Assembly (NCBI RefSeq): GCF_009914755.1 | Contig: NC_060925.1 | Origin: the human T2T-CHM13v2.0 reference genome, Homo sapiens | Length of the DNA stretch: 64,000 bases | Strand: one strand, 5' to 3' | Part shown: positions 55,130-64,000 of the stretch, piece by piece | How the letters are laid out: each line of letters starts with the position of its first letter | Numbering within the stretch: the first letter of the stretch is position 1 | Program-made: the position numbers and the translations under genes | Notes under the pieces: model-generated | Database searches by the model: none | What the model was told of the DNA's origin: nothing | The model's input: only the letters and a program-made list of their open reading frames with translations

Positions 55130-56000
55130 GCTGCGGAGCGCGCAGGACCCAGAGGACTCAAAGGGGACCTGGAGGGTGACGAGGCCTTCCGTGGCCGGGG
55201 GTGAGGAGGAGGGAAGCCGCGCGGGCGGAGAGGCGCTGGTGGGTCCCAGGTTGGAGGCTGTGGGTCTGAGAGGCGAAGCCCAGGGGAGCCCGGGGCCACC
55301 GCTGAAAAGGATGGCAGCTGAGCGCAGGCGAGGGAGAGGCGCGCGTGTCCGGGACAGACCGCGGTGGGAGCTCGACTCCGGAAACCGGCGGGCCTGGGGC
55401 TGGGACCTACAGGGAGGCGGACGCGGCACAGCCAGGGAGGTCGGTCCCGCGGGCCCCGCCCCGCCCCCCAGCCTGGAGCGCCCCCCTCCGGCCCCGGTCC
55501 GCAGTGGAGGCGGCCCCGGAAAAGCCAGAGGGTCTTGGAATGGAGGGCGGGACGGAGCCGCCTGCAACGCCCGCGACCCGCGACCCGGCTGCCCGCGGGA
55601 CCCCCGGCTCTGAAGCGGGGACGGCCGGAGCTTCCGCCTGCAGCCCAAACTCCCAGGCGCCCGGCAAGAGTGGCGGGCGCGGACCCTTTAAGAAGGCCGG
55701 GGGGCGTGGCCTCGGGGCGTGGCCCGGGGCGTGGCATCGGGGCGAGGCTTCGGGGGCGGAGCCCAGGCAGCGCCTTCGCGGAGTTGCCGGAGGGTGCGGC
55801 CGCCCAGAGCGCACCCCGAGCGCCGGCGAGCGGCGCGGTGAGACCCTCGTGCAGGTGAGCCCGGCGCACGGCGGCCCAGAATCCTGGACCCCAGGAGAAG
55901 CGTCTACGGCCCCGACAGGTGGGCGTGGCGAAATGCCACCCGGGCCCTCCTCGCGCTCCCAGCTGGGTCACGCCTCAGACCCGGGGTCCTGGACGCCTGC
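55130..56000 (+). promoter_or_regulatory. CpG-island promoter of the PTPN11-like pseudogene/lncRNA, with a degenerate exon 1 ending at 55854
   Basis: CpG-rich, several GGGGCG(T/G)GGC boxes, strong donor CAG|GTGAGC. The last 14 nt AGA CCC TCG TGC AG resemble the 14-nt MTSR(R) first coding exon of PTPN11 with the ATG lost. Confidence 0.65.
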
Positions 56001-56164
56001 CCCCCTCCACCCGCAGGCCCTGCCAGGACACTTTGGTCCCTGGCCCGCCAGGCCTGGCCTCACTCAGGCTTGGCTGTGGGGTCAGAGTCGGGCAGAACGG
56101 AACCAACAGTCCTGGCAGGCCCAGGCGGTTGGAGGAGAAGTGGTCGGCTCTGGACACCTTTGTT

Positions 56165-57740
56165 GTTTTTTGGTTTTTGTTTTTGAGATGGCGTCTCACT
56201 GTGTCACCCAGGCTGGAGTGCACTGGCGCGGTCTTGGCTCACTGCAACCTCCACCTCCCGGGTTTATGCAATTCTCCTGCCTCAGCCTCCGGAGTAGCTG
56301 GGATTACAGGTGTATGCCACCATGCCTGGCTAATTTTTGTATTTTTAGTAGAGACGGAGTTTCACCATGTTGGCCAGGATGGTCTTCAACTTCTAACTTC
56401 GTGATCCACGCTGCTGGGATTACAGGTGTGAGCCACCGCGTGTGGCCTCTGGGCACCTTTTGAAGGTAGGATGAGAGGAACTCATGGATCGGAGCCGGCA
56501 GGGAGCGCCGAGGGGGGCCGGGGGCAGGGCGGCCACCCTTGCCTGTGTGGGGAAGATGAAGAAGAGGGTGTGGGCCGCGGGGGCAAGATCAGGAGCTTTG
56601 GGTTTTGAAGATGTTAGGAAAGACGTGCTGCTGACTTTGCAAACGGAGGTGCTGAAACCGGGTGTCTGGAGCTCAGAGAAGAGGTGGCGCTGGACTGGCC
56701 TAGACTCTGTGCAGACACAGAAGAGCCAGGGCCTGGGGCTCCCATCGAGGAGGAGGACAAAGGGCCCTGGCCAGGGCAAGGTGGGAAGCCGGGAAGTGCA
56801 GCCTCCACAGAGCCTCGCAGAGAAGGCGCCACTGGAAGAAGGCGGCACTGACGGCCTCGGAGGCTGCTGAGGACCGGCTGGGCCCCGACGTCCGTGGCAA
56901 CCCTGACAGCCAAGTCCTCCGTGGGCTTGGAGGGCGGGACACGGCTCTGGAGATGAGGGAGAGGACGGGCCGTGCCGACCGGCACCGCGGTGTTCCTGAG
57001 CAGTGGCACCGTGGCTGTTGCTGAATTTTATTATTGTTAATTAATTTATTTATTTTTATTTTTGATACTGAGTTTTTCTCTTGTTGCCCAGGCTGGAGTG
57101 CAGTGGCGAGATCTCGGCTCACCGCAACCTCCGCCTCCCGGGTTCAAGCGATTCTCCTGCCTCAGCCTCCCGTGTAGCTGGGATTACAGGTGCCCATGAC
57201 CACACCCGGATAATTTTGTATTTTTAGTAGAGACGGGGTTTCACCATGTTGGTCAGGCTGGTCTCAAACTCCTGACCTCAGGTGATGCGCCTGCCTCAGC
57301 CTCCCAAAGTGCTGGGATTTCAGGCATGAGCCATCGCACCCGGCCATGAATTTTAATTCATTCCTATTTACAAATCACACAGCCATACAAACTTCTTCCA
57401 GAAGTTGTGCTCAGAGGGGAGCAGAGGGGCAGGAGCTGCAAGGAGTGGAGGCAGGGCCCGAAGGAGGAGGAGGAGCTGGGGCCCCGGGAGAGGGACCTGG
57501 CCAGGGTGGGCTGGAGCCGGGGATGGGGTCCCCAGGGGGACCAGCCAGGACCTGTGGGTGCTGCAGAGGAGGGGAGATCTTGGCTCCATTCTCAGGGGTG
57601 AAAGCCTGTGGAGGCCTTTATTTTTTATTTCTTCTTAAGTGAGATGAGGTCTGGCTATGTTGCCCAGGCTGGTCTTGAACTCCTGGGCTCAAGCAATCCA
57701 CCCGCCTCCTGAGTAATTGGGATTATAGGCATGAGCCTGG
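56165..57740 (-). mobile_element. antisense Alus (56165-56447, 57050-57345, monomer 57630-57740)
   Basis: Poly-T plus Alu consensus. Confidence 0.88.
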
Positions 57741-58119
57741 TCATGGAGGCCTTTAACAGAGACTGCGGTGAGGCCTCCATTCTAGAAAGAGCCCTGCAGC
57801 TGCCCTTTGTGGGGCAGAGGGGGCAGGACCGCCCTCAACCTTCCTCCTCCTCTGGACCAGCCATGGGGGCCGGAGCAAGGTCTGCCCAGGGCACAGCAAC
57901 CCCCACCCATTCGTGCACAGGTTATGATTCCACTGACAACCAGGCCGGGCCAGCGTGGGGCGGAGGTCCTAGAGCCAGCAGGCCCCACCTGGGTATCATC
58001 TATGCAGCCAGGAGATGCCCAAGAGCCAGGTGTCCAGAAGCCGCCCCTGTGTGGACAGCACAGCTGGGGAAGACAGAGGGCTGGGGGAGCCCCACGTCCC
58101 CAGTTCCTTCCTCTGCCGC

Positions 58120-61559: not shown

Positions 61560-62509
61560 TGTAGGGTCCAGCCCTACGGAGCTTAGCAGGTGTTCTCCCC
61601 GTGTGTGGAGATGAGAGATTGTAATAAATAAAGACACAAGACAAAGAGATAAAGAGAAAACAGCTGGGCCCCGGGGACCACTACCACAAAGACACGGAGA
61701 CCGGTAGTGGCCCTGAACGGCTGGGCTCGCTGATATTTATTGCATACAAGACAAGGGGGCAGGATAAGGAGGGTCAGTCTTCTAAGTGATTGACAAGGTG
61801 AAGCAAGTCACCTGATCACAGGACAGCGGGCCCTTCCCTCTTAGGTAGCTGAAGCAGAGAGAGAAGGCGGCAGGCATCAGCGTTTTCTTCTATGAACTTA
61901 TAAGATCAAAGACTTTAAGACTTTCACTATTTCTTCTACCGCTATCTACTACGAACTTCAAAGAGGAACCAGGAGTACGGAAGGAGCATGAAAGTGGACA
62001 AGGAACGTGACCATTGAAGCACCACAGGGAGGGGTTCAGGCCTCCGGATGACTGCAGGCAGGCCTGGGTAACATCCAGCCTCCCACAAGAAGCTGGTGGA
62101 GCAGAGCGTTCCCTGACTCCTCCAAGGAAAGGAGACTCCCTTTCCCGGTCTGCTCAGTAACGGGTGCCTTCCCAGACACTGGCGTTACCGCTTGACCAAG
62201 GGGCCCTCAAGCGGCCCTTATGCGGGCATGACAGAAGGCTCCCCTCTTGCCTTCTATTCACTTCTCACAATGTCCCTTCAGCACCTGACCCTATACCTGC
62301 CGGTTATTCCTAGGTTATATTATTAATGCAACAGAGTAATATTAAAAGCTAATGATTAATAATGTTTATAATAATGATGGATAATTGTTCATGATCATCG
62401 CTGTATCTAATTTGTATTATGACTATTCTTATTCTATTTTCTTTATTATACTGAAACAGTTTGTGCCTTCAGTCTCTTGCCTCGGCACCTAGGTACTCTT
62501 CCGCCCACA
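61560..62509 (-). mobile_element. solo ERVK-class LTR (LTR13-like) with 6-bp TSD
   Basis: Minus-strand termini TGTGGGCGGAAGAGTACCTAGGTGCCGAGGCAAGAGACTGAAGGCAC...GGACCCTACA; flanks TGGGAC (61554-61559) and CGGGAC (62510-62515); AT-rich U3-like block. Confidence 0.85.
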
Positions 62510-63345
62510 CGGGACGGGCTGGGGGTGGCCATCTCGGGCTCTGGGAAGGGGCCGGGGCTGTGAGCTGAAGGCTCCATCACCTCCAGATGCTGCAGCAGCA
62601 GGAATGCCGGTTCCTGTACCCTCGGAAGGAGGGGCAGAGTGTGGAGAACAAGCCCAAGAATCACTACAAGAACATCCTTCCCTGTGAGGGCGGAGGCCAG
62701 GGCGTCACCCGTCGGGCCTGGGGGAGGTGGGGGGCAGGCCGAGCATCTGCCACCGCTGACCTGAGGCTCCCCCTTGCATACCCTGGACCCTCCATCTCTG
62801 CTCACCACAGGGTCTGCGGGCAAAGAGGCAGGGTGAGGCCCACGAGCTGTGCCCTGGAGAACTGAGCGGCACCTCCCTTCCCAGTTGATGCTACCCTTGA
62901 GTCATCCTGCTCAACGAGGATGACAGCGGGCCCGGAGCCGACTACATCAGGGTGGGTGTGTGCGGGAGGCGGGGCCTGGGCCCATTGCTCCTGGGGGGCT
63001 CAGGAAGAACCAGGGTCCCCAAGGGAGGGGTGGGCGGCAGTCTCCAAGGGGTCCTCAGAGAGGCTGGATGGGCATTGGTCCTCAGCCCCTTGCTGGCCTG
63101 GAGTGAGGAGTGTGTTTAAGCCACCAGGGCTCTTTGCATAATATTTGTGTGTCGTTTGCATATCATTTGCATAGCATTTGCATGGACTTGTTTGTCCTCT
63201 GTTAACAGCAGCAGTTGGCCTCATTCCCTTTCAGACTGACCCTGAGGAGGAGCCGGGCCATGGCAGGGGCAGGGTGGACATCCCTTGTGGCCCTGCCCCG
63301 CCGCACCTGCACCTGCACAGCCCGCGTGGGCCCGCCCCGCCGCAG

Positions 63346-63510
63346 CTGAAGTGCACCACCATGGGCCCGGCCCGCGGCTCGCGGCTCGCGGCTCTGGGCC
63401 CGGTTCACCTCGTCCCGGAAGCCGAGGACGCCGGCGGGATCGGTCCGGACGCCGTAGTCCGGCCAGCCGAAGTACTGGAAGTGCTGCACCGTACGCTGTG
63501 GCTCCTCCCC
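63346..63510 (-). pseudogene. inverted copy of the PTP WPD-loop/P-loop exon embedded in the preceding pseudo-exon
   Basis: Minus strand reads [39 protein letters not shown], then after a frameshift AGPMVVHFS, matching the PTPN11 exon [20 protein letters not shown]...AGPVVVHCS. Confidence 0.88.
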
Positions 63511-64000
63511 GCGGGGCAGGGCCTCGCGGGCGCAGGGTGTACATCGCCTGCAGGGCTGTCTGCAGGGCTGTCTGCAGGCCACGGTGGCTGCTTTCTGGGC
63601 CACGGTGCACCAGGAGAACACGCGTGTCATCGTCATGACCACCAGGGAGATGGAGCGGGGCCGGGTAGGGGTGCGGTGCCAGTGCTCTCAGTGCCCATCC
63701 CACCCCGTGCATCTTCGGCTGCCCAAGGCCCTTCCCGACCAGGCCAAGGAGGCTGTGGGACGCCGTGGGAGTGGGGAGGCTCCCACAGAGCCCCGTGGCT
63801 GCACGTACACACCTGCGTCTCTGCAGGTCGCAGGGGCGGGGTGCCGAGGTGCTGCCAGCAAGGCTGATGCAAAGCGCTCCCCTCGGAACAAGTGTTTCCG
63901 GGACTGGCCAGAGCTGCCCGGCAGCCAAGAGTTCGGCCGTGTGCACATGCGCGTCCTCGGCAAGGGCCAGGCCCAGGGCTACTGCGTGCGGGAGCTGCAG

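What the first reader, a model, noticed from the sequence alone, without database searches (positions are those of the whole stretch)
55841..64000. Fossil of a third SHP-family phosphatase gene (SHP2-like, probably a unitary pseudogene) directly downstream of AGRN
Seen: nine or ten exon remnants in order encode N-SH2, C-SH2 and PTP sequence, separated by real introns, so this is not a retrocopy. Exon lengths and phases fit the PTPN11 structure as I recall it (123 nt, 196 vs 193, 112 vs 114, 97 vs 97). Lesions include a GT>CT donor at 59248, deletion of most of exon 3, AG>GG acceptors at 60525 and 63886, a TAG at 60579, a 2-nt deletion in exon 6, loss of NANYI in exon 8 and an LTR in intron 6. 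The protein is far more diverged and GC-rich than a recent PTPN11 duplicate would be. Inference: this is the dead orthologue of an ancient SHP2-like paralogue. I recall, unverified, an intact PTPN11-like gene beside AGRN in other vertebrates, while the human locus is annotated only as an uncharacterised transcript. That would mean humans lack one of three ancestral SH2-phosphatases acting in inhibitory-receptor and RAS signalling.
Basis: partly seen in the sequence, partly recalled or inferred. Interest (0 to 1): 0.85.

Follow-up and report, generated by a model that had tools for sequence, protein, structure and literature searches.

The report
Dead human PTPN11B phosphatase gene
The stretch between AGRN and RNF223 holds the decayed remains of a third SH2-domain tyrosine phosphatase gene (PTPN11B) that sharks, fish, birds and many mammals still carry intact; nomenclature curators have already catalogued it as the unitary pseudogene PTPN11BP.

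Summary
Exon remnants 2-10 of an SH2-SH2-PTP gene lie in order on the + strand at 59125-64018, separated by introns at PTPN11/PTPN6 positions and phases. Exons 11-14 continue to about 65650, past the window end.

It is not a PTPN11 or PTPN6 copy. Over 442 shared columns it is 72-75% identical to nine predicted placental 'PTPN11-like' proteins, 55% to human SHP2 and 49% to SHP1. A careful tree places it inside a shark-to-mammal PTPN11B clade (99/98), among placentals (100/100). All 31 of 31 sampled PTPN11B proteins keep the catalytic motifs; the fossil has lost each one.

No other PTPN11B-like locus exists in the human assembly. HGNC already lists PTPN11BP as a unitary pseudogene (passage), so the finding is known.

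New details found here:
- An inverted copy of exon 11 splits exon 9.
- The annotated lncRNA reuses fossil exon 2 and ends in an LTR-like repeat.
- Indirect evidence places RNF223 beside the gene in a dolphin.
- Rough decay time is 30-80 million years.

Synteny with AGRN in other species and the status in primates and rodents remain untested.

The parts
55500..55999 (+). GC-rich (0.758) stretch that holds exon 1 of lncRNA LOC100288175 (55806-55918, from the hub's gene table). Presumed former promoter of the phosphatase gene.
   Evidence: composition; sequence read. The promoter role is inferred.
55839..55855 (+). Weak candidate for coding exon 1: 17 nt, phase-compatible, followed by GTGAGC, no ATG.
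   Evidence: Read. The pattern search for a PTPN11-type exon 1 found 0 matches at up to 3 mismatches. Not established.
59125..59247 (+). Exon 2 (first half of N-SH2). 123 nt, open frame, AG acceptor, donor mutated to CT. Reused as exon 3 of the annotated lncRNA (59125-59245).
   Evidence: (87.8% identical to colugo over 41 aa; 72.5% to SHP2; 52.5% to SHP1).
59532..59611 (+). Remnant of the 3' end of exon 3. GT donor kept. The first roughly 115 nt of the exon, and its acceptor, are missing.
   Evidence: only residues 86-111 of the colugo protein match.
60250..60445 (+). Exon 4 (C-SH2). 196 nt, open frame, both splice sites intact.
   Evidence: (71% to the camel protein).
60526..60633 (+). Exon 5. 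108 nt against 120 expected from the camel protein. Acceptor is GG. Two deletions of about 7 and 5 nt shift the frame and then restore it. TAG at 60579.
60888..61337 (.). 30-bp minisatellite in intron 5, 15 copies.
61367..61478 (+). Exon 6. 112 nt against 114. 2-nt deletion, with an in-frame TAG at 61421.
61560..62510 (.). LTR-like dispersed repeat in intron 6, about 950 bp, with TG...CA ends. The last exon of the lncRNA (61843-62468) lies inside it.
   Evidence: The repeat family was not determined.
62587..62683 (+). Exon 7 (start of the PTP domain). 97 nt, open frame, both splice sites intact.
62885..62951 (+). Exon 8. 67 nt against 80. Carries a +2 frameshift and a 15-nt in-frame deletion.
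63235..63277 (+). Exon 9, 5' piece, with its AG acceptor.
63278..63518 (-). Inverted copy of exon 11 and its flanks, inserted into exon 9. It shares the Cys-to-Phe change and the CT donor with the original, which lies outside the window at 64580-64814.
   Evidence: 10 mismatches and 8 gap columns in 242 columns.
63520..63664 (+). Exon 9, 3' piece. 1-nt deletion, 12-nt tandem duplication (63548-63578), GT donor.
63887..64000 (+). Exon 10, cut here by the window end. The whole exon is 63887-64018: 132 nt, open frame, acceptor GG, GT donor.
   Evidence: (73% to colugo; 32% to SHP2).
64000..64000 (+). Marker for the parts that lie beyond the window, read from locus L006 and numbered as a continuation of the window.
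- Exon 11, 64592-64746: 155 nt, open frame, catalytic Cys codon now TTC at 64742-44, donor CT.
- Tandem duplication with a 78-bp period, 64744-64927.
- Exon 12, 65014-65081: 68 nt, P-loop Arg codon now TGC at 65027-29, donor GC.
- Exon 13, 65303-65451: 149 nt, TAA at 65431, Q-loop Gln changed to Pro.
- Exon 14-like tail, 65523 to about 65654, with a TAA at 65574.
- The RNF223 coding frame follows on the minus strand at 67911-68696.
   Evidence: (tail 56% identical to camel residues 533-598).

Best explanation
This is the human unitary pseudogene of PTPN11B, a third jawed-vertebrate member of the SH2-SH2-PTP (SHP) phosphatase family, lying between AGRN and RNF223.

The ancestral gene had the same exon-intron plan as PTPN11 and PTPN6. 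It encoded an enzyme with two SH2 domains and a classical tyrosine-phosphatase domain.

In the lineage leading to humans it stopped being maintained and drifted for tens of millions of years. It lost splice sites, most of exon 3, its reading frame in exons 5, 6, 8 and 9, and the catalytic Cys, the P-loop Arg and the Q-loop Gln. It gained stop codons, an LTR-like insertion, a minisatellite and an inverted copy of exon 11 inside exon 9. No protein can be made from it.

What remains active is transcription from the GC-rich 5' region. The annotated lncRNA LOC100288175 still uses the acceptor of fossil exon 2 and ends in the LTR-like element.

Shown here: the anatomy, the lesions, the placement in the tree and the uniqueness of the locus in the genome. 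Inferred: the timing, the promoter's identity and loss of function of the transcript.
For: - Domain content and order.
- Conserved intron positions, phases and exon lengths against PTPN11 and PTPN6 models built from the same assembly.
- Lesions read directly from the sequence.
- Closest proteins are predicted 'PTPN11-like' or 'ptpn11b' proteins. The camel protein is 71% identical on exon 4, against about 55% for SHP2.
- Same-column identity over 442 columns: 72-75% to nine placental PTPN11B proteins (tree shrew model 69%), 65% marsupial, 63% bird, 59-60% frog, fish and shark, 55.2% SHP2, 48.9% SHP1.
- Careful ML tree of 31 rows: PTPN11B clade 99/98, placental PTPN11B including the fossil 100/100. 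The quick 57-row tree agrees.
- The catalytic motifs HCSAGIGRTG, WPDHGVP and QTEAQY are present in 31 of 31 PTPN11B rows and absent from the fossil.
- The fossil differs at 49 of 300 positions (16.3%) that are invariant in 8 placental orthologues. Leave-one-out controls differ at 1.6-6.8%.
- A whole-assembly search with the camel protein finds no second PTPN11B-like locus.
- HGNC names PTPN11BP as a unitary pseudogene (passage).
- Zebrafish Shp2b is catalytically active, and ptpn11b-/- fish are viable and fertile (passages).
Against: - In both trees the fossil sits with Laurasiatheria (98/97), not with colugo and tree shrew as the species tree predicts. The AU test does not reject the expected grouping (p 0.166), and the fossil's branch is long (0.40).
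- Exon 1 and a start codon were not found.
- The HGNC passage gives no coordinates, so equating PTPN11BP with this locus is an inference.
- The 'intact' orthologues are computed gene models. Function has been tested only in zebrafish, whose own sequence was not in my set.
- Synteny with AGRN in other species was not tested.
- The trees hold only two PTPN11 rows and two PTPN6 rows.
Confidence: 0.93

Rival explanations
1. A duplicated (unprocessed) pseudogene made by a segmental copy of PTPN11 or PTPN6 within primates or mammals.
For: It keeps introns and the SHP exon plan. One exon-9 stretch matches PTPN6 DNA at 80%.
Against: Exon DNA identity is only 59-70% to PTPN11 and 60-81% to PTPN6. Fossil exons are 65.6% GC, against 45.0% for PTPN11. 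The fossil lies inside a clade that includes sharks and is separate from both paralogues (99/98). Exon 10 is 73% identical to colugo PTPN11B but only 32-33% to SHP2 and SHP1.
Confidence: 0.01
2. A processed (retrotransposed) PTPN11 pseudogene, like the five intronless copies found elsewhere in the genome.
For: Humans do carry intronless PTPN11 copies on contigs C3, C4, C5, C6 and C8.
Against: Here the exons are separated by 71 bp to more than 1 kb of non-coding DNA at the conserved intron positions. AG/GT signals are retained at most boundaries.
Confidence: 0.005
3. The locus is no longer a protein gene but has been kept as a functional non-coding gene or regulatory region. On this view the lncRNAs LOC100288175 and antisense LOC105378948 carry out a selected function.
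For: RefSeq annotates spliced transcripts on both strands (the hub's gene table). The sense transcript still splices into fossil exon 2 at its original acceptor. This is compatible with the main explanation, not opposed to it.
Against: The other lncRNA exons lie in repeat-derived DNA (one looks Alu-like by eye), which is typical of transcriptional noise from an old promoter. The 4 papers that mention LOC100288175 only list it, judging from the search listing.
Confidence: 0.12
4. The locus still encodes a short protein, for example an isolated SH2 fragment.
For: Exons 2, 4, 7, 10, 11 and 12 have open frames. A 494-aa ab initio model from this locus sits in the large protein collection (P0001).
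Against: No start codon or exon 1 was found. The exon 2 donor is destroyed and most of exon 3, the second half of N-SH2, is gone. P0001 reads through intronic sequence to stay open.
Confidence: 0.02

Closest known systems
[quoted passage not shown]
   Same: HGNC gives it as an example of a human unitary pseudogene named after functional orthologues in other species (passage in PMC12807706). This locus is the only PTPN11B-like place in the human assembly.
   Different: The passage gives no coordinates, lesions or history. The RefSeq table supplied with the finding lists only lncRNAs here. Identity with this locus is my inference.
Zebrafish ptpn11b (Shp2b)
   Same: Fish proteins named ptpn11b (perch, sea bass, eel, sturgeon, catshark, basking shark) fall in the same clade as the fossil. 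The papers report Shp2b as 64% similar to human SHP2; the fish ptpn11b proteins in my set are 67-70% identical to it.
   Different: The zebrafish gene is intact and active, redundant with ptpn11a and dispensable on its own (passages). Two papers ascribe the pair to a genome duplication, in context the fish one. Shark and tetrapod members of the clade show the split is much older. The zebrafish sequence itself was not in my set.
PTPN11 (SHP2), human chr12
   Same: Same domain order, same intron positions and phases, and the highest similarity among human genes (55.2% over 442 columns).
   Different: It falls in a separate clade (100/100 for PTPN11, 99/98 for PTPN11B). PTPN11 exons 2-13 are 45% GC and span 42.9 kb; the fossil's are 65.6% GC and span 6.3 kb. 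PTPN11 is intact and essential.
PTPN6 (SHP1), human chr12
   Same: Same exon plan and similar compactness: exons 2-13 span 8.6 kb at 58.7% GC. It is sister to PTPN11B in the free tree (91/96).
   Different: Only 48.9% identical. The sister relation is not secure.
Intronless PTPN11 copies in the human genome (contigs C3, C4, C5, C6, C8)
   Same: They are SHP-derived dead sequences.
   Different: They are intronless copies of PTPN11 mRNA; the C3 copy is 88-98% identical to PTPN11 exons. They have a living parent gene, so they are not unitary.

Membership tests
SHP subfamily of classical non-receptor tyrosine phosphatases (SH2-SH2-PTP) | Two N-terminal SH2 domains followed by one PTP domain, in that order | tested here: met
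   Pfam finds SH2 in the frames of exons 2 and 4 and Y_phosphatase in later frames. The best PDB matches are SHP2, then SHP1. Exon order 2 to 13 is colinear.
SHP subfamily of classical non-receptor tyrosine phosphatases (SH2-SH2-PTP) | Shared intron positions and phases with PTPN11 and PTPN6 | tested here: met
   Exons 2, 7, 10, 11 and 12 have exactly the same lengths as in PTPN11 and PTPN6. Exons 4, 6 and 13 differ by 2-6 nt. The remaining exons are damaged.
SHP subfamily of classical non-receptor tyrosine phosphatases (SH2-SH2-PTP) | Catalytic P-loop Cys and Arg, WPD loop and Q loop (needed for an active member) | tested here: not met
   Cys is now Phe, P-loop Arg is now Cys, the His after WPD is now Tyr, and Q-loop Gln is now Pro. 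The fossil descends from the family but is not a working member.
PTPN11B orthology group | Groups with PTPN11B proteins to the exclusion of PTPN11 and PTPN6 | tested here: met
   Clade support is 99/98, and the placental subclade including the fossil is 100/100. The quick 57-row tree gives 98 and 100. The identity gradient follows the species tree.
PTPN11B orthology group | Family-specific sequence outside the conserved domains (C-terminal tail, exon 9 loop) | tested here: met
   Camel tail residues 533-598 match just after exon 13 at 56%. The exon 9 loop peptide matches colugo at 65% over 17 aa. No match to these tail residues was listed at PTPN11 or PTPN6.
PTPN11B orthology group | Conserved gene neighbourhood (AGRN upstream, RNF223 downstream) | tested here: inconclusive
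   One of the 27 long gene models tested (dolphin P0009) ends with 70 residues that are 84% identical to the antisense reading of the human RNF223 RING-finger coding sequence. This implies tail-to-tail adjacency in the dolphin. The AGRN side and every other species could not be tested, because no vertebrate genome other than the window's own is held.
Unitary pseudogene | Multiple disabling lesions in a gene with its ancestral intron structure | tested here: met
   Four in-frame stops, frameshifts in exons 5, 6, 8 and 9, five altered splice sites, a large deletion in exon 3 and an insertion in exon 9.
Unitary pseudogene | No functional copy of the same orthologue elsewhere in the genome | tested here: met
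   A search of the whole assembly with the camel protein returned 50 matches: this locus, PTPN11, PTPN6, intronless PTPN11 copies and other PTP genes. That search used a stricter first look, so weak matches may be missing.
Unitary pseudogene | Intact functional orthologues in other species | tested here: met
   Full-length predicted proteins: 31 of the 31 sampled keep all catalytic motifs. Activity is shown only for zebrafish Shp2b in print.
Processed pseudogene | Absence of introns | tested here: not met
   Introns are present at the conserved positions.

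The most novel reading that the evidence does not exclude
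PTPN11B is a third SHP gene that dates from before the split of sharks and bony vertebrates, and it may be closer to PTPN6 than to PTPN11. It is kept with an intact catalytic site in fish, amphibians, reptiles, birds, a marsupial and many placentals, including livestock, carnivores, bats and colugos. It was lost separately in primates and, apparently, in rodents.

If so, the 'two SHP phosphatases' picture drawn from human and mouse is lineage-specific. Zebrafish ptpn11b would be the orthologue of a gene that humans have lost, not a fish-only duplicate. Large-animal models would carry an extra SHP2-like enzyme.
Probability: 0.6. Interest if true: 0.5.

Novelty: already known. Interest (0 to 1): 0.35.

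Why it matters
For annotation, the uncharacterised lncRNA LOC100288175 is a transcript of a dead phosphatase gene. Ab initio predictors still produce a false 494-aa protein from this locus (P0001).

For signalling biology, SHP1 and SHP2 are usually treated as the whole family. These results show a third member with an intact catalytic site in many vertebrates, including dog, pig, cattle and horse, and its absence in humans. That bears on how zebrafish ptpn11a/ptpn11b double-mutant work is read. By inference only, it may also bear on SHP2-targeted compounds tested in species that keep the extra paralogue.

Of the 20 held papers that mention ptpn11b, none has a title about its loss in humans. 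I read passages from six of them and found no account of its age or loss. Only the HGNC database paper names the pseudogene.

Tried and rejected
- The first attempts to derive the PTPN11 exon model by exhaustive search of splice-site combinations failed or timed out. I replaced them with junction matching against an intronless PTPN11 copy.
- I first counted a TGA at 60531 as a lesion in exon 5. Comparison with the camel protein showed that it lies in the wrong local frame, so I dropped it.
- I first read the placental tail as simple read-through of the exon 13 donor. Comparison with marsupial and bird tails shows an exon 14-like segment after a 71-nt interval (65452-65522). Several placental gene models read through that interval in frame. 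Whether that is real was not resolved.
- The exon 1 pattern search found nothing.
- Literature searches for 'PTPN11-like', 'PTPN11L' and 'SHP-3' returned nothing on the gene among the 20 of 50 papers listed.
- I did not use structure prediction, complex prediction or the protein atlas, because sequence evidence was decisive.
- I did not name the LTR family, because no repeat library is held.

Full report
**What is there**

The + strand from about 59.1 kb to the window end carries recognisable pieces of an SH2-SH2-PTP gene.
- Pfam scores SH2 in the open frames around exon 2 (E 3e-13) and exon 4 (E 1.5e-12).
- Pfam scores Y_phosphatase in 63458-64000 (+) at E 5e-8, and unexpectedly in 63202-63687 (-) at E 8.3e-5.
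- The exon 4 frame matches SHP2 chains best in the PDB (E about 1e-26), then SHP1.
- The window is human chr1:434001-498000, and the assembly can be searched. I therefore fetched 7 kb beyond the window and the PTPN11 and PTPN6 loci.

**Reference exon models**

I rebuilt PTPN11 by matching an intronless PTPN11 copy on C3 to the genomic locus. Junctions were fixed by GT/AG signals and an open frame. The result is 593 aa. PTPN6 exons 2-13 were placed by homology, phase and splice signals.

**Exon map** (places above 64000 lie outside the window)

| Exon | Place | Length (nt) | State |
|---|---|---|---|
| 2 | 59125-59247 | 123 | Open frame; donor is CT |
| 3 | 59532-59611 | remnant | Only the last part survives; donor kept |
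| 4 | 60250-60445 | 196 | Fully intact |
| 5 | 60526-60633 | 108 | Acceptor GG; deletions of about 7 and 5 nt; TAG at 60579 |
| 6 | 61367-61478 | 112 | 2-nt deletion; TAG at 61421 |
| 7 | 62587-62683 | 97 | Fully intact |
| 8 | 62885-62951 | 67 | +2 frameshift; 15-nt deletion |
| 9 | 63235-63277 and 63520-63664 | split | Separated by an inverted copy of exon 11; 1-nt deletion; 12-nt tandem duplication |
| 10 | 63887-64018 | 132 | Open frame; acceptor GG |
| 11 | 64592-64746 | 155 | Open frame; catalytic Cys now Phe; donor CT |
| 12 | 65014-65081 | 68 | P-loop Arg now Cys; donor GC |
| 13 | 65303-65451 | 149 | TAA at 65431; Q-loop Gln now Pro |
| 14-like tail | from 65523 | - | TAA at 65574 |

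- Exon 1 was not found.
- Intron 5 holds a 30-bp minisatellite.
- Intron 6 holds a roughly 950-bp dispersed repeat with TG...CA ends. The search gave 615 first-look candidates, of which 40 were scored; the 39 full-length other copies are 88-92% identical to this one.

**It is not a copy of PTPN11 or PTPN6**

- Exon DNA identity is 59-70% to PTPN11 and 60-81% to PTPN6.
- Fossil exons are 65.6% GC. PTPN11 exons are 45.0% and PTPN6 exons 58.7%.

**Intact relatives**

- Querying the large protein collection with exon 4 alone returned two camel proteins named 'PTPN11-like' at 71% identity. It also returned a 494-aa model that the window itself encodes.
- With the camel protein as query there were 3192 hits at E <= 1e-30, of which 120 are listed.
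- The 72 rows ranking above the first marsupial are Laurasiatheria, one colugo and one tree shrew (marked LOW QUALITY), plus two unnamed rows. Below them come a second colugo row, birds, reptiles, amphibians (including the Xenopus 'ptpn11 b' homeolog), sturgeons and teleost 'ptpn11b'.
- With the human-encoded model as query, 893 hits were found and 120 listed. The best non-self hit is a colugo. Shark 'ptpn11b' proteins appear in the list.
- By their names, none of the 120 listed rows in either search is a primate, rodent or rabbit. That is absence from a listing, not proof of absence.

**Placement**

- Over the 442 columns filled in all 17 aligned rows, the fossil is 72-75% identical to nine placental PTPN11B proteins (tree shrew model 69%), 65% to marsupial, 63% to bird, 59-60% to frog, sea bass and catshark, 55.2% to human SHP2 and 48.9% to SHP1.
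- Quick ML tree, 57 rows: 31 of the 141 named proteins, 23 of the 150 unnamed representatives, human SHP2, the human SHP1 core and the fossil. It gives a PTPN11B clade (98) and places the fossil in the placental subclade (100).
- Careful tree, 31 rows. I left out 13 PTPN11B rows: pangolin, pig, hoopoe, Antrostomus, Paroedura, Lissotriton, Rhinophrynus, Rhinoderma, two Acipenser ruthenus rows, perch, Oncorhynchus and paddlefish. I also left out 13 long-branch representatives. It gives PTPN11B 99/98, placental PTPN11B with the fossil 100/100, PTPN11 100/100 and PTPN6 100/100.

Two results cut against a tidy picture.
- The fossil joins Laurasiatheria (98/97) and not colugo and tree shrew. The AU test does not reject the expected grouping (p 0.166).
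- The free tree pairs PTPN11B with PTPN6 (91/96). A PTPN11B+PTPN11 pairing is not rejected either (p 0.084).

So 'SHP2-like' is a statement of similarity, not of established sisterhood.

**Dead here, alive elsewhere**

- HCSAGIGRTG, WPDHGVP and QTEAQY occur in 31 of 31 sampled PTPN11B proteins and in none of the fossil's pieces.
- Pfam finds two SH2 domains and a full PTP domain in the colugo and camel proteins.
- The fossil differs at 49 of 300 positions (16.3%) that are invariant in eight placental orthologues. Leave-one-out controls differ at 1.6-6.8%, and the low-quality tree shrew model at 8.1%.
- The fossil also differs at 30 of 189 positions that are invariant across PTPN11B, SHP1 and SHP2.

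**Timing (inference)**

- Treating those changes as neutral gives 36-79 million years, for rates of 2.2 to 1.0e-9 per site per year. Allowing for the background seen in the controls gives roughly 30-60 million years.
- The inverted exon 11 copy differs from the original by 10 mismatches and 8 gap columns in 242 columns. Both copies share the Cys-to-Phe change and the CT donor. Those lesions therefore predate the duplication, which by the same rates is at least about 10-20 million years old.

**Uniqueness and prior knowledge**

- A search of the whole assembly with the camel protein finds this locus exon by exon: exon 2 at 81%, exon 11 at 74%, the tail at 56%. Beyond that it finds only PTPN11, PTPN6, intronless PTPN11 copies on five chromosomes and other PTP genes (run with a stricter first look).
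[quoted passage not shown] It is the only held paper with that symbol and the only one combining 'unitary pseudogene' with PTPN11.
- Twenty held papers contain 'ptpn11b' (19 listed), and none of their titles concerns its loss in humans. I read passages from six.
- Bonetti et al. 2014 report that Shp2b is active and that ptpn11b-/- fish are viable and fertile, with rescue showing redundancy. They mention the teleost genome duplication in this context.
- The shark and tetrapod members found here show that the split is far older than teleosts.
- I opened no supplementary files.

**Neighbourhood**

- Of the 27 gene models of 630 aa or more, one (dolphin P0009) has a C-terminal 70 residues that match window place 68278-68487 on the + strand at 84%.
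- That stretch is the antisense reading of a 261-aa minus-strand frame with RING-finger domains, lying inside the span annotated as RNF223.
- This implies that in the dolphin the gene abuts RNF223 tail to tail, as the fossil does in humans.
- The AGRN side and all other species could not be tested.

**Present activity**

According to the gene table supplied with the finding, lncRNA LOC100288175 has four exons.
- It starts in the GC-rich stretch (55806-55918).
- Its second exon looks Alu-derived by eye; I did not test this.
- Its third exon is fossil exon 2, spliced at the original acceptor (59125).
- It ends inside the LTR-like element (61843-62468).

An antisense lncRNA overlaps exons 7 and 10. 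Nothing here shows that either transcript has a function.

**Verdict**

It is interesting as natural history of a much-studied enzyme family. The entity is already catalogued, so I score it as known, with modest added detail.

Noticed in passing
window 63278-63518 (-) versus 64580-64814 (+, outside the window): A 241-bp inverted copy of exon 11 and its flanks sits inside exon 9. About 20-37 bp of exon 9 sequence on either side of the insert resemble each other (30 of 38 columns), but far less closely than the inverted copies do. A simple target-site duplication of the same age does not fit.
   Followed up: partly
L006:744-927 (64744-64927, outside the window): A tandem duplication with a 78-bp period, 96.2% identical over 106 nt, begins exactly at the broken donor of exon 11.
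   Followed up: partly
window 60888-61337: A 30-bp G-rich minisatellite of 15 copies (94% matches) in intron 5. It gives long artificial open frames on both strands.
   Followed up: no
window 61560-62510: An LTR-like dispersed repeat (615 first-look candidates in the assembly) supplies the last exon of lncRNA LOC100288175, and by eye also its AATAAA signal. The repeat family was not named.
   Followed up: partly
P0001 (protein collection): A 494-aa ab initio protein model built from this pseudogene is stored in the large public protein collection. It reads through intronic DNA to stay open.
   Followed up: partly
L006:1452-1522 (65452-65522, outside the window) and the camel, horse and dolphin models: Placental PTPN11B gene models read a roughly 72-nt interval after exon 13 in frame, adding about 24 Gly/Pro-rich residues. 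Marsupial, bird, frog and fish proteins lack them. The placental tails have also diverged: the camel has Cys where other species have the Tyr of a YENL motif. Whether this is a retained intron or a modelling artefact is unknown.
   Followed up: partly
P0061 (Tupaia chinensis): The tree shrew model is flagged LOW QUALITY by its source. It shows more changes at conserved placental positions (8.1%) than any intact orthologue (1.6-6.8%). The gene may be decaying there too, or the assembly may be poor.
   Followed up: no
L006:3911-4696 (-) (67911-68696, outside the window): The RNF223 RING-finger coding frame. A dolphin PTPN11-like gene model borrows its antisense strand as a last exon, which suggests overlapping 3' ends or a mis-joined model.
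   Followed up: partly
window 59647-59732: An imperfect (TG)n / GTGTGC microsatellite lies immediately after the exon 3 remnant.
   Followed up: no
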